Shown here one piece after another: positions 4,990-64,000 of a stretch of DNA of 64,000 bases. A program made the position numbers and the translations under genes. The stretch is from an uncultured Pseudomonadales bacterium. GTDB taxonomy: Bacteria; Patescibacteriota; Microgenomatia; UBA1400; PJMF01. Position 1 is the stretch's first letter; the number at the start of each line of letters is the position of its first letter. The notes beneath the pieces were generated by a model. That model had not been told where the DNA came from. It saw nothing but the letters and a program-made list of their open reading frames with translations, and did no database searches. The DNA lies in NCBI GenBank assembly GCA_964625685.1, contig CAZVBO010000001.1, forward strand, positions 153,570 to 217,569, given 5' to 3'.

Positions 4990-5066
4990 TGTCATTCCGG
5001 CGGAGGCCGGAATCTATAATATTTTTGCAAAATAAGGTATGGATGCCGACTTTCGTCGGGATGACA
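4990..5066. repeat. MITE-like palindromic element, copy 1 (subfamily B)
   Basis: Sequence TGTCATTCCGGCGGAGGCCGGAATC...GATGCCGACTTTCGTCGGGATGACA. It has TGTCAT/ATGACA termini and two internal hairpins, and is intergenic between sufB and the sufD-like gene. Confidence 0.75.
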
Positions 5067-21036: not shown

Positions 21037-21443
21037 GGGGATGTATTGCTTTGACGTAATACGCACTTTAACATCTGCAAACCGTCTTTGATCAAAGACG
21101 TTAAACAGGTCACTTACAATAACTGGCAATATGCTCAGTAAAGTCCGTGATATGGCTGGTAGAGCTTTAGCTGCTATCAATCCATTCATGGATCCAAATT
21201 TTGCTTCCGTAGAAGCTTAACTAGGCATTCATGCTTTTACTCTCACTGATGGTAAAGTATGGGTGAAAACTCAGTCAGTGTGACATGAGTAAATTGGTAC
21301 GATTGCTCATTAAGATATAGTACCGGGGAAGGAGACACAGTTTGTTGTTTTACTGGCTTTTTCTTTAGACTCAAAGAACAACTAAGTTTGTAGATGATGT
21401 TATTTTGACTATTGCGGACGCGGGTTCATTACTCGCCATCTCC
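21037..21443 (+). ncRNA. ssrA: tmRNA (ssrA)
   Basis: The 5' GGGGAUGUAUUGCUUUGACG and 3' GGACGCGGGUUCAUUACUCGCCAUCUCCA match the E. coli tmRNA ends (GGGGCUGAUUCUGGAUUCGACG ... GGACGCGGGUUCAACUCCCGCCAGCUCCACCA). The acceptor GGGGAUG pairs with CAUCUCC. An internal ALAA-encoding GCUUUAGCUGCU is present. A promoter-like TTGAAT/TATAAT lies just upstream. Confidence 0.8.
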
Positions 21444-21484
21444 ACACTTCGACTTAATTTTCTTTCTTTACGAAGAAACTTGCT

Positions 21485-25056: not shown

Positions 25057-25130
25057 GGTCGTATAGCTCAGTTGGTTAGAGCGCGCCGTTCACATCGGCG
25101 AGGTCTCTGGTTCGAGTCCAGATACGACCA
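25057..25130 (+). tRNA. tRNA-Val (anticodon CAC)
   Basis: A cloverleaf with GGTCGTA/TACGACC acceptor, D arm, anticodon loop TTCACAT and T arm CTGGTTCGAGTCCAG. CCA is not encoded. Confidence 0.85.
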
Positions 25131-31295: not shown

Positions 31296-31480
31296 GCCTT
31301 CATAGTTTAACGGATAGAACAAAGGTTTGCCTGCCCGCAATGCCGTGAAGCGTCTATAGTTTAAGGGATAGAACAATGGTTTGCGGAACCATTAATCCAG
31401 GTTCGAGTCCTGGTAGACGCACAGACTAAGGCAGGCGGGCGGAACCTTCGATCCAGGTTCGATTCCTGGTGAGGGCACCA
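31296..31480 (+). tRNA. tRNA-Gly (anticodon GCC) interrupted at position 37/38 by about 111 nt that contain tRNA-Arg. The 5' exon is 31296-31331 and the 3' exon is 31443-31477 (+CCA)
   Basis: The 5' half GCCTTCA-TA-GTTTAACGGATAGAAC-A-AAGGT-TTGCC pairs with the 3' half ACCTT-CGAT-CCAGGTTCGATTCCTGG-TGAGGGC-A-CCA. The acceptor has 7 of 7 pairs and the anticodon stem AAGGT/ACCTT. The flanking intervening sequence forms a roughly 9-bp helix that sequesters the anticodon. Confidence 0.5.
31350..31421 (+). tRNA. tRNA-Arg (anticodon GCG as read) nested inside the tRNA-Gly intervening sequence
   Basis: A perfect 7-bp acceptor GCGTCTA/TAGACGC, D arm GTTT..AGAAC, anticodon stem ATGGT/ACCAT with loop TTGCGGA, and T arm CCAGGTTCGAGTCCTGG. 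Confidence 0.75.
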
Positions 31481-31570: not shown

Positions 31571-31657
31571 GGCGGAGTGCCGGAGTGGTCTAACGGGCTG
31601 GTCTCGAAAACCACGCGATCCGCAAGGGTCACTAGGGTTCGAATCCCTACTCCGCCG
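31571..31657 (+). tRNA. tRNA-Ser (anticodon CGA), type II with a long variable arm
   Basis: Acceptor GGCGGAG/CTCCGCC, anticodon loop CTCGAAA, variable arm GATCCGCAAGGGTC and T arm TAGGGTTCGAATCCCTA. Confidence 0.75.
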
Positions 31658-39042: not shown

Positions 39043-39116
39043 TGTCATCCTCGCGCACGCGGGGATCTGGGATATTGGTTGTGTTTTTCCAGATTCCCGC
39101 TTTCGCGGGAATGACA
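39043..39116. repeat. MITE-like palindromic element, copy 2 (subfamily A)
   Basis: TGTCATCCTCGCGCACGCGGGGATCTGGGA...CCAGATTCCCGCTTTCGCGGGAATGACA. Confidence 0.75.
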
Positions 39117-39677: not shown

Positions 39678-39762
39678 CGGAGGTGAAGAGATTCGAACTC
39701 TTGAACCCAATAAAGGGTCTGGTTTTCAAGACCAGTGCAATTGACCGCTATGCGACACCTCC
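39678..39762 (-). tRNA. tRNA-Ser (anticodon TGA), type II
   Basis: Reverse strand GGAGGTG...CTGGT-CTTGAAA-ACCAG, variable arm GACCCTTATTGGGTTC and T arm AAGAGTTCGAATCTCTT-CACCTCC-G. Confidence 0.8.
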
Positions 39763-53489: not shown

Positions 53490-53581
53490 CGTCATCCTCG
53501 CGCCTGCCTGCGCAGGCAGGAATGCGGTGATCTGGAATGGCACAACCAATTTTCCAGATTCCCGTGTACACGGGAATGACA
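53490..53581. repeat. MITE-like palindromic element, copy 3 (subfamily A, carries the CCTGCCTGCGCAGGCAGG palindrome)
   Basis: GTCATCCTCGCGCCTGCCTGCGCAGGCAGGAATGCGGTGATCTGGAATGG...CCAGATTCCCGTGTACACGGGAATGACA. Confidence 0.75.
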
Positions 53582-60150: not shown

Positions 60151-60230
60151 CGTCATCCTCGCGAAAGCGGGGATCTGGGAAATAAACAGTTTAGTAGTTT
60201 TTACAGATTCCTGCTTTCGCAGGAATGACA
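60151..60230. repeat. MITE-like palindromic element, copy 4 (subfamily A)
   Basis: CGTCATCCTCGCGAAAGCGGGGATCTGGGA...CAGATTCCTGCTTTCGCAGGAATGACA. Confidence 0.75.
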
Positions 60231-60261: not shown

Positions 60262-60320
60262 CACTAAACGTTAGCCATTTAGATTTTGGAATTTGGACTT
60301 TGAAATTTAGACTTTGAAAT
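60262..60320. repeat. Short AT-rich tandem repeats (GACTTTGAAATTTRG, 3-4 units) in the divergent promoter region
   Basis: GATTTTGGAATTTGGACTTTGAAATTTAGACTTTGAAATTTGGATTTTG. A related inverted arrangement occurs at 31478-31560 and a weaker one at 2186-2215. Confidence 0.5.
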
Positions 60321-60347
60321 TTGGATTTTGCCCACTATACTAGAGGA

Positions 60348-61280
60348 ATGTCTGTAGTTTTGTCGGTTCAGGGTTTGACCAAAATTTACCAGCCGGAAAA
60401 AAAGAGTGATCACCCATTTGTGGCGGTGGATGATGTCAGTTTTGAGTTACATAATGGTGAAATCTTAGGATTTCTAGGTCCAAATGGAGCAGGTAAATCG
60501 ACTACTATCTCGATGTTGCTTGGGGTGACCACACCTACTGCAGGTTCCATTACGTATTTTGGAAAGGACTTTAGTCAACATCGATCAGAAATTTTGCAGC
60601 AGGTGAATTTTGCCAGTACCTATATCAAAATGCCTTGGCGCTTGTCTGTCTTAGAAAATTTACGAGTCTATGCTCGGTTTTACGGGGTCACGGAATCACA
60701 GTTTTTAAGAAGATCAGAAAAGTTTTTGTCGTATTTTGGAGTATGGAATCAGCGTCACAAAACCATGAATAATTTATCGGCAGGTCAAGTAACCCGAGTA
60801 ATGTTGGCCAAAGCCTTTATTCCTCATCCGCGAGTGGTATTACTTGATGAGCCAACTGCATCACTAGATCCAGATATCGCCCATCAAGTTCGTCAATTTG
60901 TCAAAACCCAACAGCAAGAGTTTCACACTAGTATTCTTTATACTTCTCATAATATGGATGAAGTTACTGAATTATGTGAGCGGGTAATTTTCTTAAAGTC
61001 AGGGAAAATTGTAGCAGTAGATACGCCTCAAAATTTAGCAGCCTCAATTTCGACTGCTAAAATGAGACTCCAAGTTAAAGATGGGTTAAAACGAACCGCT
61101 CGGTTTGCCAAAGAACAAGGTTTAGAGGCACAAATCGTCGACCGGGAAATTGAAATTTTACTGGATGAGGATAAAATTGCTGATTTTTTGAGTCAACTGG
61201 CTGCTCACAAAATTACCTACACCCAGATTAGTATTGCGAAACCTACGTTGGAAGATTACTTCCTGAGTATGTCTTTATAA
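60348..61280 (+). CDS. ABC transporter ATP-binding protein (ABC-2 type)
   Basis: GPNGAGKST, LSAGQ and LLDEPTASLD. Confidence 0.85.
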   Translation: MSVVLSVQGLTKIYQPEKKSDHPFVAVDDVSFELHNGEILGFLGPNGAGKSTTISMLLGVTTPTAGSITYFGKDFSQHRSEILQQVNFASTYIKMPWRLSVLENLRVYARFYGVTESQFLRRSEKFLSYFGVWNQRHKTMNNLSAGQVTRVMLAKAFIPHPRVVLLDEPTASLDPDIAHQVRQFVKTQQQEFHTSILYTSHNMDEVTELCERVIFLKSGKIVAVDTPQNLAASISTAKMRLQVKDGLKRTARFAKEQGLEAQIVDREIEILLDEDKIADFLSQLAAHKITYTQISIAKPTLEDYFLSMSL

Positions 61281-61282
61281 CT

Positions 61283-62077
61283 ATGAAATCAATCGTTCAT
61301 AAAAACCACCTGCAAGCTTTTTTCTTGCGTCACTTGTATCCACTGCGACGTGACTTTGATTTGTTAAGTGACATGATTTATTGGCCCATTATTGATACTT
61401 TACTCTGGGGAATTACGGGCCAGTGGCTGGTTGATACATCGGGAAATCAGAGTCTAATTTCGGCCATTTTATTAGGACTGGTGATTTGGAACATTATTTG
61501 GCGAGCCCAATCAGAAGTGTCTCGCAATTTAATTGATGAAATTTGGAATAACAATTTAGTTAATTTATTTTCGACCCCGCTAAGTATTACTGAATGGATT
61601 ATTGGAGTGACTGCTTTGTCTATTTTGAAAACGATGGTGACTTTGGGAGTACTGGCAGTTGCTATTAGTTTGTTGTATCACATTGGAATTTTCCAGTTGA
61701 GTTGGTGGTTTTTACTCTTCTTTATTGGAGCAACTATTACGGGTTGGTGGATAGGTTTTATTTCAGCTGGAGTGGTATTGCGCTATGGACCTAAATATCA
61801 GACCGTAGTATGGACTTTCCCCGGAATTTTAGCGCCCTTTAGTGCCATTTATTTCCCAGTCGATAAATTACCAATGTGGGGACAAATGATCAGTAAAGTA
61901 GTCCCTACCAGTTATATTTTGGAAACTATGCGTTCTGTTTTGTTTCAACAATCAATTTCAAGTTCACTGTTGATAGTCAGTTTTGGTTTAAATTTCTTGT
62001 ACTTGGGTTTGGCTTTATGGTTTTTTGTAAAAAGTTTTGACTACAGTAAAAATCTCGGATTGGGGAGGTTTGATTAA
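61283..62077 (+). CDS. ABC-2 family transporter permease
   Basis: 6 TM helices, translationally coupled to the ATPase. Confidence 0.7.
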   Translation: MKSIVHKNHLQAFFLRHLYPLRRDFDLLSDMIYWPIIDTLLWGITGQWLVDTSGNQSLISAILLGLVIWNIIWRAQSEVSRNLIDEIWNNNLVNLFSTPLSITEWIIGVTALSILKTMVTLGVLAVAISLLYHIGIFQLSWWFLLFFIGATITGWWIGFISAGVVLRYGPKYQTVVWTFPGILAPFSAIYFPVDKLPMWGQMISKVVPTSYILETMRSVLFQQSISSSLLIVSFGLNFLYLGLALWFFVKSFDYSKNLGLGRFD

Positions 62078-62152
62078 TTAAATCAAACTTTTTACTTGAA
62101 TAGGAACTTGAATCTTTATCCAGTATTTGTACAATAAGCGGCATACATACAA

Positions 62153-62303
62153 TATCCTTCAGGGTCGGGTGAAATTCCCAACCGGCGGTAATTCCACAGT
62201 TTTTGGAACAGCCCGCGAGCGCTCTGTAGTTACATACTTCGGAGGTCAAGCAGATCTGGTGAAATGCCAGAGCCGACGGTAAAGTCCGGATGAAAGAAGG
62301 TTC
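62153..62303 (+). promoter_or_regulatory. FMN riboswitch (RFN element) aptamer
   Basis: GGGUGAAAUUCCCAACCGGCGGUA, AGCCCGCGAGC and GCCGACGGUAAAGUCCGGAUGAAAGAAGG closely match the B. subtilis ribD RFN (GGGUGAAAUUCCCGACCGGCGGUAGUAAAGC...AGCCCGUGACC...GCCGACAGUGAAAGUCUGGAUGGGAGAAGG). The P1 helix is CCUUC/GAAGG. Confidence 0.85.
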
Positions 62304-62360
62304 AATAACACTTAGTTGGTAAGTGTTATTGTTGATAGTGAATTCATAATTCACTTTTCT
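62304..62360 (+). terminator. Riboswitch expression platform: a 10-bp hairpin (62304-62330), then an intrinsic terminator GTGAATTCATAATTCAC-TTTTCT (62338-62360)
   Basis: AATAACACTTagttggtAAGTGTTATT, then GTGAATTcatAATTCAC followed by a T run, then RBS GGAG and ATG at 62391. Confidence 0.6.
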
Positions 62361-62390
62361 GAAAATTCCCCCTGAAGAAAATGGAGCAAA

Positions 62391-63281
62391 ATGAAACTCA
62401 AACGTTTGAGTGGAAGTTTAATTGTAATGGCAGCGGCCTTGTGGGCCTTTGATGGGATTTTACGGCGAAGTCTGTATCATTTACCGGCGGTAACGATTGT
62501 ATTTTATGAACATCTAGTCGGCTCAGTATTACTGACTCCAGTAGCTTACTCGCTTTTCAAAAAGGAGAAAATTACTAAAGAGATTTTACAATTGGCTATT
62601 CCGATTGCTTTGTTCGGTGGTTTACTGGGGACACTGTTTATTACGACGGCGTTGATTAAAGTCCAATATATTCCGTTTAGTGTGGTTTTTCTGATTCAAA
62701 AAACTCAGCCTATTTTTGCTATTTTAACGGCTGCTGTTTTGCTGAAGGAAAAAATTACTTCCCGTTTTATTCGTTGGGCTGCTTTAGCCTTAGTCTCTGT
62801 GTTCTTTGTGTCGTTTAAAAATGGCGTAGTCCATTTTGATATTCCTGGGACTATCACTGCGGCTTTATTCTCCTTAGGAGCATCATTTTTCTGGGGGATT
62901 TCGACTACTTTAGGCAAGATGTTGGTAGAGAAAGTCTCTGATACCATGGCCACCACACTCAGGTTCTATCTATCCACAGTCTTGGCATTTATGACAGTGT
63001 TTTTGTTGGGTTCTCAAGCCAGTTTGCTAACGGTGGGTGGGGCTGATATTACCAAGTTAATCATGATTGGTTTTTCAACGGGTTTACTGGCTATGTGGTT
63101 GTACTATAAAGGTTTGAAGAATACACCAGTGAAAGTAGCAACTATTTTGGAATTAACTTTCCCCTTGTTAGCGGTTTTTGTGGATATGTTTTTGTACAAA
63201 ACTTTCCTTGCCCCCAGTCAGTACCTTGCGGCTGCTGTTTTAATGTTTGCGATGTATCAGGTGGGGAAGCAGAATAACTAA
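62391..63281 (+). CDS. EamA/DMT-family transporter under FMN riboswitch control, putative riboflavin importer (RibN/ImpX-like)
   Basis: A 296-aa protein with 10 TM helices and two EamA-like halves. The FMN riboswitch is directly upstream. The family assignment is from topology and the function is inferred from the riboswitch. Confidence 0.65.
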   Translation: MKLKRLSGSLIVMAAALWAFDGILRRSLYHLPAVTIVFYEHLVGSVLLTPVAYSLFKKEKITKEILQLAIPIALFGGLLGTLFITTALIKVQYIPFSVVFLIQKTQPIFAILTAAVLLKEKITSRFIRWAALALVSVFFVSFKNGVVHFDIPGTITAALFSLGASFFWGISTTLGKMLVEKVSDTMATTLRFYLSTVLAFMTVFLLGSQASLLTVGGADITKLIMIGFSTGLLAMWLYYKGLKNTPVKVATILELTFPLLAVFVDMFLYKTFLAPSQYLAAAVLMFAMYQVGKQNN

Positions 63282-63286
63282 TGGTT

Positions 63287-63316
63287 TCCCTCAGAGAGGG
63301 ATCAGCCTCTGGCTGA
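63287..63316. repeat. Double-hairpin mini-element (second copy)
   Basis: TCCCTCAGAGAGGGA-TCAGCCTCTGGCTGA compared with TCCCGCAGAGCGGGA-CCAGCCTCTGGCTGG at 24976-25005. Compensatory changes keep both stems intact. Confidence 0.6.
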
Positions 63317-63350
63317 AATGTTTAGTGTTTATTGGTTAATTGTGTTGCAT

Positions 63351-63385
63351 TGTCATTCCGGCGACGGCCGGAATCCATAATGTTG
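63351..63385. repeat. MITE-like element, left half only (subfamily B)
   Basis: TGTCATTCCGGCGACGGCCGGAATCCATAATG is near-identical to the left arm at 4990-5021. No matching right arm is seen. Confidence 0.55.
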
Positions 63386-63598
63386 GGATTAGTCAAAGTT
63401 TTTTCCCGTAGTATGGTCTCCCGTCTGCCAGGGGGTGGCATTCAGTGATATTTCTTACAATTACGTTTTTCATTGAAATCCCTCTCCCCATCATTATAAA
63501 TACCTCTGTCTTGCTTGCTCAGATAGGTTTGTGTAGGGTGATCAAAAAAGAACTTTTCTGTTGTGAGGACAAGAGAGACAGTGTAAACTTTGGTATAT

Positions 63599-64000
63599 AT
63601 GACGAAACACTGGCTGGAAAAAATATTAGGTATTTTTCTGATTGGTTTTTTACTTTTTTCAAGATTCTTTTTTCTCAATCGGATTCCAGCAACTTTAACT
63701 CATGATGAAATGGTTTATGCCATTCAAGCTCGATCGTTTGCCCTGCAAGGAACAACTTTAGATCAACGCCAACATTTTTGGGATCTCAAACCAGTTCATA
63801 TTATGTATGCGGAATGGCCAGCTCAAGTTATGACTGTAGGGATGTTAGTGAGTCATCACCCCTTACTTTCAGCACATTTAGTGTCGGTTGTGATGGGAGT
63901 CACCTTACCAATTTTATTAGGTTGGTTAACTTGGAATATTTGGCGACGTAAAGATGCGTCACTAGCGGTATTTGCGGTGATGGTTTTTAGTCCACTTTTC
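63599..64000 (+). CDS. GT39/ArnT-like membrane glycosyltransferase, N-terminal part (runs off the window)
   Basis: MTKHWLEKILGIFLIGFLLFSRFFFLNRIPATLTHDEMVYAIQARSFALQG parallels LRLWHLDSLPAVVHRDEASIGYNAYAIAQTG of the 37196 gene. The frame is open to the window end. Confidence 0.6.
   Translation, partial: MTKHWLEKILGIFLIGFLLFSRFFFLNRIPATLTHDEMVYAIQARSFALQGTTLDQRQHFWDLKPVHIMYAEWPAQVMTVGMLVSHHPLLSAHLVSVVMGVTLPILLGWLTWNIWRRKDASLAVFAVMVFSPLF

What the first reader, a model, noticed from the sequence alone, without database searches (positions are those of the whole stretch)
62153..63281. FMN riboswitch controlling an EamA/DMT transporter: a predicted riboflavin uptake system
The leader has all the RFN hallmark segments and a terminator-type expression platform (10-bp hairpin, then GTGAATTCATAATTCAC-UUUU). 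The only downstream gene is a 10-TM EamA-family transporter. EamA/DMT riboflavin importers (RibN, ImpX types) are known FMN-riboswitch targets. No riboflavin biosynthesis genes are in the window, consistent with an auxotroph that salvages riboflavin.
Basis: partly seen in the sequence, partly recalled or inferred. Interest (0 to 1): 0.7.

Follow-up and report, generated by a model that had tools for sequence, protein, structure and literature searches.

The report
FMN riboswitch controlling ImpX-type riboflavin importer
A textbook vitamin-B2-sensing RNA switch sits in front of a membrane transporter related to a proven bacterial riboflavin importer. This known arrangement is seen here in an uncultivated, reduced-genome (CPR/Patescibacteria) bacterium that probably gets its riboflavin from outside.

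Summary
A full-length canonical FMN riboswitch (RF00050, 117.7 bits, E 8e-27) lies at 62151-62305. All eight FMN-contact nucleotides are intact. It is followed by a single 296-aa, two-EamA-domain, roughly 10-TM transporter gene (62391-63281).

The transporter is a distant (34% identity, end to end) member of the ImpX family, the Fusobacterium riboflavin importer validated by complementation. I identified the F. vincentii impX locus with the published primers and its own riboswitch.

Family context ties the protein to riboflavin independently. Of 80 species-level relatives, all Patescibacteria, 54 have a riboflavin kinase gene beside it (4 fused). Ten carry the same riboswitch (two more sub-threshold). 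Two sit next to ribE/ribH genes.

No rib genes occur in the 64-kb window, but auxotrophy cannot be tested from it.

The second hairpin has 8 bp with 2 G-C pairs, is followed by only UUUC, and is not followed by a U run in the 85%-identical relative. The conserved feature is a segment just 5' of the Shine-Dalgarno (62370-62377) that is complementary to the aptamer's 5' strand. This suggests an FMN-OFF switch acting mainly on translation.

Verdict: a new member of a known kind, of modest interest.

The parts
62108..62135 (+). Promoter-like site, TTGAAT - 16 nt - TACAAT. It would start the transcript about 62142, some 10 nt before the aptamer.
   Evidence: Consensus scan, the only sigma-70-like site in 61900-63600. 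A pattern match only.
62151..62305 (+). FMN riboswitch aptamer (RF00050), complete. P1 is CCUUC 62156-62160 paired with GAAGG 62296-62300.
   Evidence: 117.7 bits, E 8e-27. All eight FMN-contact nucleotides are conserved.
62157..62164 (+). Switching segment X (CUUCAGGG): the P1 5' strand plus J1/2, including G10 and G11. It can pair either with the P1 3' strand or with Z.
   Evidence: It is the best of all 144 aptamer 12-mers for pairing with the platform (-14.6 kcal/mol). 1 of 500 shuffles of the platform reached that energy (p = 0.002).
62303..62331 (+). Hairpin 1, 12 bp, immediately 3' of P1. It is followed by UUGAUAG.
   Evidence: -12.5 kcal/mol, z -5.6, 0/200 shuffles. A hairpin at this position recurs in relatives.
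62337..62359 (+). Hairpin 2 (AGUGAAUU-CAU-AAUUCACU, 8 bp, 2 G-C) plus UUUC.
   Evidence: Seen in the folds. It was not reported by the terminator scan. L085 has a hairpin here but no U run.
62370..62377 (+). Segment Z (CCCUGAAG), the perfect complement of X, at -21 to -14 from the start codon. It lies between a pyrimidine tract (UUUCU...UUCC, 62356-62369) and the Shine-Dalgarno.
   Evidence: X:Z pairs in the unconstrained MFE and centroid. It is conserved at -24 to -6 in L085, L088, L013, L014 and L021. The A/G at X position 9 is matched by U/C in Z in 8 of 9 loci and by a G.U pair in L013.
62383..62386 (+). Shine-Dalgarno GGAG, 4 nt before the ATG.
   Evidence: Read directly from the sequence.
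62391..63281 (+). ImpX-family DMT (2 x EamA, about 10 TM) transporter, a predicted riboflavin importer. Monocistronic.
   Evidence: Pfam. 34% identity over the full length to F. vincentii ImpX, pairwise E 1e-45. 50 invariant columns are shared with ImpX.
63302..63316 (+). Terminator-like hairpin 21 nt after the stop codon (TCAGCC-TCT-GGCTGA). The next gene starts about 63600.
   Evidence: Terminator scan. The tail has few T, so this is only suggestive.

Best explanation
This is a self-contained flavin-salvage unit made of a promoter, a canonical FMN-sensing riboswitch and one gene for an ImpX-family drug/metabolite-type (EamA x2) secondary transporter that imports riboflavin.

When cellular FMN is high it binds the aptamer and locks the 5' strand (CUUCAGGG) into P1 and the ligand pocket, and expression of the importer falls (OFF switch). 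When FMN is low, the same 5' strand instead pairs with its complement CCCUGAAG just upstream of the Shine-Dalgarno. This unfolds the aptamer and keeps the ribosome-binding region out of weak local inhibitory pairings (UUUCU:AGAAA, UUCC:GGAG, UUGUU:AGCAA), so the importer is made.

Shown: the aptamer and its binding-site nucleotides; homology to validated ImpX; the riboflavin-linked context of the family; the non-random, conserved X:Z complementarity.

Inferred: the substrate and direction of transport; OFF logic in this particular leader; and that control is mainly translational rather than by termination.
For: Aptamer: RF00050 at 117.7 bits, with all FMN contacts conserved.

Homology to ImpX:
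- tblastn against 7.3 Gb of PLSDB records gave only two hits at E<=1e-3. The best is one locus in a 2.1-Mb F. vincentii chromosome.
- That locus is bracketed by the published impX primers, 3 mismatches each (primers from PMC4418817).
- It has its own RF00050 (118 bits) and encodes an EamA x2 protein.
- ImpX of F. nucleatum rescued an E. coli ribB auxotroph at low riboflavin (PMC4418817).

Family context in 80 species-level loci from GTDB genomes, all Patescibacteria MAGs:
- A riboflavin kinase is fused (4), immediately downstream (29), upstream on the same strand (19) or adjacent on the opposite strand (2).
- 8 of 8 neighbours tested are PF01687 at 88-100 bits.
- In L084 and L068 a 109-aa kinase overlaps the transporter start by 7 nt.
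- RF00050 lies directly upstream in 10 of 80 loci, plus L077 at 64 bits.
- It is also upstream in the closer relatives L085, L086, L088 and L095.
- In L027 the transporter is the last gene of aptamer-ribE-ribH-ribA.

OFF logic:
- In L086 (71% identity) the P1 3' strand GAAGGGAG is itself the Shine-Dalgarno, 4 nt before the ATG.
- In L032 and in ImpX (L090), X is complementary to the 5' arm of a canonical terminator.

Flavoenzymes encoded in the window, so FMN/FAD are needed: Dus and an FNR-like protein.
Against: - No experiment exists on this protein or RNA.
- Identity to ImpX is only 34%, and no phylogeny with other DMT subfamilies (including RibN) was made.
- The window protein itself has no kinase neighbour and no flavokinase anywhere in the 64 kb.
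- The predicted inhibitory pairings around the SD are weak. A thermodynamic proxy (platform alone against Z blocked) changes mean SD accessibility only from 0.64 to 0.76 here, and goes the wrong way in two relatives.
- In L095, Z lies about 130 nt from the start codon, so the 'Z next to SD' layout is not universal.
Confidence: 0.8

Rival explanations
1. The importer and the FMN-OFF logic are the same, but control is by transcription attenuation: FMN binding lets hairpin 2 (62337-62355) plus its U tract act as an intrinsic terminator.
For: A hairpin followed by UUUU/UUUC exists. Several relatives and ImpX itself have clear hairpin-plus-U6-7 terminators after the aptamer: L016, L037, L032, L013, L095 and L090. 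The impX riboswitch is described as transcriptional (PMC11014391).
Against: Hairpin 2 has only 2 G-C pairs and 3-4 U, and it was not called by the terminator scan. Hairpins 1 and 2 form in both the unconstrained and the platform-only folds, so nothing couples them to the aptamer state. The complement of the switching strand lies 3' of the putative terminator, so it cannot be its antiterminator. The U tract is not conserved in L085.
Confidence: 0.2
2. The transporter is an exporter or detoxifier of flavins or flavin breakdown products, switched ON by a flavin. This would resemble the variant FMN riboswitches of Clostridioides difficile. Many EamA proteins are exporters.
For: The EamA family contains many exporters (general knowledge). 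Taken naively, X:Z pairing next to the SD in the FMN-free state could hinder ribosome binding, which would give ON logic.
Against: The aptamer keeps all the guanosines (G10, G11, G32, G62, G84) whose G-to-A change defines the variant classes (PMC6298564). The closest characterised homologue is an importer (PMC4418817). Fusion or translational coupling to riboflavin kinase in 52 of 80 relatives makes sense for uptake-and-trap, not for export. L086, L032 and L090 have unambiguous OFF layouts.
Confidence: 0.05
3. The substrate is a flavin other than free riboflavin (FMN, FAD, or a precursor such as lumazine). Alternatively the protein is a broad-specificity DMT carrier whose link to the riboswitch is lineage-specific.
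For: Substrate specificity cannot be read from the sequence. 26 of 80 relatives have no kinase neighbour, and 18 of 80 have no riboflavin-related neighbour at all. Two loci place it beside ribE/ribH.
Against: A kinase that acts on riboflavin being the dominant neighbour or fusion partner points to unphosphorylated riboflavin as the imported species. ImpX supports growth on riboflavin (PMC4418817).
Confidence: 0.1

Closest known systems
ImpX riboflavin transporter of Fusobacterium nucleatum / F. vincentii, with its FMN riboswitch (the RNA crystallised as PDB 3F2Q)
   Same: The protein has two EamA domains, about 300 aa, 34% identity end to end and shared motifs (QKxQPxFA, LLKEK, T..EL.FP......D). 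Both are monocistronic genes directly behind a canonical RF00050 aptamer. In both, the aptamer's 5' strand (P1 5' plus J1/2) has a complement in the expression platform.
   Different: In ImpX that complement is the 5' arm of a strong terminator (ACCCGAAUU...AAUUUGGGU plus U7). Here it sits next to the Shine-Dalgarno and has no terminator partner. ImpX was reported only in Proteobacteria, Firmicutes and Fusobacteria, and only in species that also make riboflavin (PMC4418817). This one is in a Patescibacteria genome with no rib genes in 64 kb. The CPR clade has an RR motif (R25 R26) that ImpX lacks.
RibN (Rhizobium, Ochrobactrum, Vibrio)
   Same: A riboflavin importer of the DMT/EamA type (COG0697). 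It is under an FMN riboswitch in alpha-proteobacteria (PMC4418817; PMC6298564).
   Different: It is restricted to Proteobacteria according to PMC4418817. I could not obtain a RibN sequence with these tools, so the relationship is untested. No proteobacterial plasmid-borne DMT gene reached E<=1e-3.
Variant FMN riboswitches, subtypes 1 and 2 (Atilho et al. 2019, PMC6298564)
   Same: The same six-helix architecture, also upstream of transporter genes.
   Different: The variants replace the phosphate/ribityl-contacting G residues with A, reject FMN, are ON switches and control efflux pumps. The window RNA keeps every one of these G residues.
RibU (ECF S-component), PnuX/RibM, RfnT, RibXY, RibZ
   Same: Functional analogues: riboflavin uptake genes that are commonly FMN-riboswitch targets (PMC4418817).
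   Different: They are unrelated protein folds or families. The window protein matches only EamA.
LicB choline transporter (PDB 7B0K), the nearest solved structure by sequence
   Same: DMT superfamily. The profile match covers residues 31-293 (E 5e-8).
   Different: A different substrate and only a remote relationship. It is useful solely as a fold reference.

Membership tests
FMN riboswitch (Rfam RF00050) | Covariance-model score above the curated gathering threshold over the whole model | tested here: met
   117.7 bits against 66.2, model positions 1-138, E 8e-27.
FMN riboswitch (Rfam RF00050) | Ligand-contact nucleotides G10, G11, G32, A48, G62, G84, A85, A99 (numbering of 3F2Q) | tested here: met
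   All eight have the expected base at window 62162, 62163, 62184, 62218, 62253, 62275, 62276 and 62290. They were mapped through the F. vincentii impX aptamer, where the numbering is self-consistent.
FMN riboswitch (Rfam RF00050) | An expression platform whose alternative pairing competes with P1 | tested here: inconclusive
   X:Z complementarity is significant and conserved. The element it regulates (SD or terminator) is not resolved, and the accessibility proxy is weak.
FMN riboswitch (Rfam RF00050) | Binds FMN and changes gene expression | not testable with these tools
   Needs in-line probing or ITC and reporter assays.
ImpX riboflavin transporter family | DMT architecture: two EamA domains, about 10 TM, about 300 aa | tested here: met
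   PF00892 x2 in both the window protein and ImpX. Ten hydrophobic segments.
ImpX riboflavin transporter family | Specific sequence relationship to validated ImpX rather than to generic DMT paralogues | tested here: met
   The ImpX locus is the single hit in the 2.1-Mb F. vincentii chromosome, and one of only two hits in 7.3 Gb, at E<=1e-3. 34% identity over 99% of the length. All 80 CPR relatives are 32-40% identical to ImpX over the full length. Caveat: no tree with outgroups and no genome-wide reciprocal best hit.
ImpX riboflavin transporter family | FMN riboswitch upstream of a monocistronic gene (PMC4418817) | tested here: met
   The next gene starts about 320 nt downstream.
ImpX riboflavin transporter family | Confers riboflavin uptake (rescue of E. 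coli ribB) | not testable with these tools
   Experimental.
RibN riboflavin transporter family | Orthology to R. leguminosarum / V. cholerae RibN | not tested
   No RibN sequence was obtainable. Only the shared Pfam family (EamA) is known.
Variant FMN riboswitch (subtype 1/2) | G-to-A changes at phosphate/ribityl contact positions | tested here: not met
   All contact G residues are retained, so this RNA is not a variant.

The most novel reading that the evidence does not exclude
In Patescibacteria the ImpX-type carrier may be half of a dedicated 'import-and-trap' module with a small monofunctional riboflavin kinase. The two are translationally coupled in most lineages and fused into one polypeptide in some (Komeilibacteria-type, 424 aa). 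In a minority, including this window's lineage, an FMN riboswitch stands in front of the transporter, usually with no kinase gene beside it.

This would make ImpX the main, possibly sole, flavin entry route in organisms that lack the pathway. That is the opposite of the published observation that ImpX occurs only in riboflavin prototrophs. The transporter-kinase fusion would also be an undescribed domain architecture. I found no paper describing it in the held library.
Probability: 0.45. Interest if true: 0.45.

Novelty: new member of a known kind. Interest (0 to 1): 0.3.

Why it matters
It gives a concrete, testable candidate for how CPR/Patescibacteria acquire vitamin B2. These are reduced-genome, mostly uncultivated bacteria thought to depend on other cells, so the candidate is useful for designing media and interpreting cross-feeding.

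It extends the validated ImpX family into a new superphylum. It also challenges the earlier statement that ImpX occurs only alongside de novo synthesis.

The near-universal pairing with a riboflavin kinase in relatives is strong guilt-by-association evidence. It could be used to annotate more than 300 species-level genomes that are currently labelled only 'DMT family transporter'.

For riboswitch biology it is an ordinary canonical FMN element. The only mildly instructive point is a platform in which the usual antiterminator complement has moved next to the ribosome-binding site.

Tried and rejected
- NCBIfam gave only a far sub-threshold TIGR00950 match (61 against 230 bits), so no named equivalog exists.
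- The first fusion protein I looked up (P0113) returned no DNA because the sample file was too large. I used the GTDB loci instead.
- A thermodynamic proxy for SD accessibility (platform alone against Z blocked) gave small and inconsistent shifts. I do not use it as support.
- The metagenome scan with the single protein returned only six loci, too few for a covariation model of the platform. I therefore built no covariance model.
- The listing of cluster members gave no accession or organism name for the window protein. Taxonomy rests on the names of homologues.
- I considered the variant-FMN / efflux reading and rejected it on the binding-site nucleotides.
- I considered a regulated terminator at hairpin 1 or 2 and found no alternative pairing that would couple either to the aptamer.
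- RibN could not be compared because no sequence was available.
- Literature searches for CPR plus riboflavin transporter or riboswitch, and for kinase-transporter fusions, found nothing specific. Absence from the held library is not proof of novelty.

Full report
**Observation**

A gathering-threshold Rfam scan of the whole window finds one riboswitch. It is RF00050 (FMN) at 62151-62305 on the + strand, at 117.7 bits (threshold 66.2), E 8e-27, covering model positions 1-138 with no truncation. Every highly conserved consensus position is matched.

The FMN-contacting nucleotides of the F. nucleatum structure are G10, G11, G32, G62 and G84 for ribityl/phosphate, and A48, A85 and A99 for the isoalloxazine ring (PMC6298564). 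I anchored the numbering on the F. vincentii impX aptamer, where all eight identities fit. They map to window positions 62162, 62163, 62184, 62218, 62253, 62275, 62276 and 62290, and all are conserved. The RNA is therefore a canonical FMN sensor. It is not one of the G-to-A variant classes that reject FMN and switch on efflux pumps.

A promoter-like TTGAAT-16-TACAAT lies at 62108-62135. The only gene downstream is ORF 62391-63281 (296 aa), preceded by GGAG at 62383-62386. A terminator-like hairpin follows at 63302-63316, and then a 320-nt gap. Pfam sees two EamA domains (107 bits). Hydropathy gives about ten membrane segments.

**What the transporter is**

The protein collection returns more than 1000 relatives. 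The named ones are 'DMT family transporter' from Pacebacteria, Komeilibacteria and the Patescibacteria group. A scan of one genome per GTDB species found 325 genomes encoding a relative. The best 80 loci are all Patescibacteria MAGs, although some carry wrong automatic labels.

tblastn of the window protein against 7.3 Gb of PLSDB records gave only two hits at E<=1e-3. The better one (117 bits, 34% identity over 99% of the query) lies in a 2.1-Mb Fusobacterium vincentii chromosome that is deposited as a 'plasmid'.

- Both primers published for cloning F. nucleatum impX match that locus with 3 mismatches each, at L090 2037-2056 and 3411-3431 (primers from PMC4418817).
- Between them lie an RF00050 aptamer (118 bits) and a 299-aa EamA x2 ORF.

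That ORF is therefore the ImpX orthologue. ImpX from F. nucleatum rescued an E. coli ribB auxotroph at low riboflavin (PMC4418817). The pairwise alignment with the window protein runs end to end (E 1e-45). Fifty columns are invariant across ImpX and eight CPR proteins, including QKxQPxF, LLKEK and T..EL.FP......D. All 80 CPR proteins are 32-40% identical to ImpX.

I conclude that the window protein is a distant member of the ImpX family. COG0697 (DMT) genes are already listed among the common FMN-riboswitch targets (PMC6298564).

**Independent links of the family to riboflavin**

(i) Riboflavin kinase. Several relatives of about 424 aa carry a C-terminal PF01687 riboflavin-kinase domain. tblastn with that domain shows a kinase next to the transporter in 54 of the 80 species loci:

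| Arrangement | Loci |
|---|---|
| Fused in frame | 4 |
| Separate ORF immediately downstream | 29 |
| Upstream on the same strand | 19 |
| Adjacent on the opposite strand | 2 |

Eight of eight neighbours tested are PF01687 at 88-100 bits. In L084 and L068 a 109-aa kinase overlaps the transporter start by 7 nt.

(ii) Riboswitch. RF00050 sits directly upstream, on the same strand, in 10 of the 80 loci. L077 adds one more at 64 bits, just under threshold. The closer relatives also carry it: L085 (85% identity), L086 (71%), L088 (67%) and L095 (69%).

(iii) rib genes. In L027 (Levyibacteriota) the transporter is the last gene of an FMN-like aptamer-ribE-ribH-ribA cluster. In L078 it follows flavokinase-ribE-ribH.

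At least 60 of the 80 loci, or 62 counting the two sub-threshold aptamers, carry at least one of these links. A kinase that phosphorylates riboflavin as the dominant partner argues that free riboflavin is what enters, and that it is trapped as FMN.

**The window's own context**

Pfam hits, precomputed or run here, for most ORFs of 120 aa or more show no riboflavin biosynthesis gene and no flavokinase. tblastn with CPR RibE, RibH, RibA and the kinase domain finds nothing in the 64 kb. Flavin-dependent enzymes are encoded (Dus and an FNR-like reductase), so the cell needs FMN/FAD.

Whether the organism is an auxotroph cannot be decided from 64 kb. L027 and L078 show that some CPR keep part of the pathway.

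**How the switch probably works**

The family shows several platform layouts, and the ones that can be read unambiguously are all OFF.

- In L086 the P1 3' strand GAAGGGAG is itself the Shine-Dalgarno, 4 nt from the ATG.
- In L032 and in ImpX (L090) the aptamer's 5' strand is complementary to the 5' arm of a strong terminator, which is the classical antiterminator arrangement.

In the window, P1 is followed by two local hairpins: 62303-62331 (12 bp, -12.5 kcal/mol) and 62337-62355 (8 bp, 2 G-C, then UUUC). Both persist in every fold, whether or not the aptamer is formed. Nothing couples either hairpin to ligand binding. The terminator scan did not call the second one. In the 85%-identical L085 the equivalent hairpin has no U tract.

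What is conserved is CCCUGAAG at 62370-62377, 6 nt upstream of the SD. It is the perfect complement of CUUCAGGG (62157-62164), which is the P1 5' strand plus J1/2 and includes G10 and G11.

- This pairing is chosen in the unconstrained MFE and centroid.
- Only 1 of 500 platform shuffles reached its energy (p = 0.002).
- It is the best of all 144 aptamer 12-mers against the platform.
- The same 5' segment ranks first in 7 of 14 riboswitch loci, and the first 20 or so nucleotides rank first in 10 of 14.
- Its partner lies at -24 to -6 from the start codon in L085, L088, L013, L014 and L021.
- Where the aptamer has G instead of A at position 9, the partner has C instead of U (L021, L032, L090). 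L013 has a G.U pair.

Because X contains ligand-pocket nucleotides, X:Z and FMN binding are mutually exclusive.

The most economical model is as follows. With FMN bound, X is locked, and the pyrimidine tract 62356-62369 together with 62329-62333 can form weak pairings over 62376-62389 (UUUCU:AGAAA, UUCC:GGAG, UUGUU:AGCAA), which lowers initiation. Without FMN, X:Z forms, overlaps those pairings and frees the SD. In L095 an 8-nt anti-SD (UAUUUUCC) complementary to GGAAAAUA at the SD directly overlaps Z, which fits this scheme.

The weakness is quantitative. The inhibitory helices here are A-U rich and marginal, and my accessibility proxy changes little (0.64 to 0.76 here, and the wrong direction in two relatives). 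I put about 0.45 on mainly translational control through X:Z, about 0.2 on termination, and the remainder on mixed or other mechanisms (Rho, RNA stability). I put about 0.85 on OFF logic overall.

**Rivals for function**

An exporter or ON-switch reading is disfavoured (0.05) for four reasons. The binding pocket is intact. The closest characterised relative is an importer. The kinase fusions make sense for uptake. The close relatives have OFF layouts. A different flavin substrate cannot be excluded by sequence (0.1).

**Comparison with what is known, and novelty**

An FMN riboswitch in front of a monocistronic impX has been described since the comparative-genomics work summarised in PMC4418817, and the impX aptamer is the structural archetype of the class. 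The window is a new member of that known kind.

What differs:

- The host is Patescibacteria, whereas ImpX was reported in Proteobacteria, Firmicutes and Fusobacteria.
- The platform is non-terminator-like.
- At family level, the pairing or fusion with riboflavin kinase is pervasive. I did not find it described in the held literature.

These points make it useful for annotation and for CPR physiology, but not surprising to a specialist. Interest 0.3.

Noticed in passing
window 4991-5014(+), 39092-39115(-), 53557-53580(-), 60152-60175(+), 60206-60229(-), 63352-63375(+): There are six intergenic copies of a REP-like hairpin, GTCATTCC-N-GCGANNGC-N-GGAATC, where 0 are expected by chance. The stems differ by compensatory substitutions. 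One copy lies 70 nt after the transporter's stop, and two lie upstream of the neighbouring ABC operon. A similar element (GTCATCCTGAGGGGCATAGCCCGAAGGATC) sits in the riboswitch leaders of L037 and L016. Rfam does not recognise it.
   Followed up: partly
L020, L025, L031, L043 (GTDB loci); proteins P0088, P0090, P0091, P0097, P0108, P0113, P0115: These are natural fusions of the ImpX-like transporter with a C-terminal riboflavin kinase domain (PF01687), about 424 aa. P0113 has only 70 nt upstream, so it has no riboswitch. I found no description of this architecture in the held literature.
   Followed up: partly
L027 450-3463 (Candidatus Levyibacteriota MAG JACPAR010000017.1): A sub-threshold FMN-like aptamer (52 bits, P1 poorly matched) precedes ribE (Lum_binding), ribH (DMRL synthase), ribA (GTP cyclohydrolase II) and then the ImpX-like transporter. 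This is a CPR genome with part of the riboflavin pathway and the transporter in one cluster. L078 (Nomurabacteria) has flavokinase-ribE-ribH-transporter.
   Followed up: partly
L016 69-188 and L077 2165-2325: The FMN aptamers upstream of the transporter have an atypical J1-2/P2 (CGGCGAGGCGAGG-AAUUCC instead of UCAGGGCAGGGUGAAAUUCCC). L077 scores 64.1 bits, just below the gathering threshold. They may be a divergent subtype, and their ligand-contact positions were not examined.
   Followed up: no
window 60276-60325: About 3.5 tandem copies of a 14-nt unit (GGACTTTGAAATTT) run into the TTG start of the ABC ATPase gene (60321).
   Followed up: no
window 21037-21447; 25057-25130; 31350-31421; 31571-31657; 39678-39762(-): A tmRNA (95 bits, with large insertions relative to the model) and four tRNA genes.
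   Followed up: no
window 60321-62077: An ABC-2 type exporter pair (DrrA-like ATPase plus ABC2 membrane protein) lies immediately upstream of the riboswitch. The same neighbours occur in the 85%-identical relative L085 but not in L086 or L088, so the pair is probably unrelated to flavin transport.
   Followed up: partly
PLSDB record NZ_CP084075.1 (L090): A 2.1-Mb Fusobacterium vincentii chromosome is filed as 'plasmid pSB055A' with one annotated feature. This was fortunate here, because it supplied the ImpX locus.
   Followed up: yes
window 63600-64000 (+), continuing beyond the window: The next gene downstream encodes a 626-aa membrane protein with no Pfam hit in the precomputed table. Its N-terminus looks like a dolichyl-phosphate-mannose or ArnT-type glycosyltransferase, judged by eye only.
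   Followed up: no
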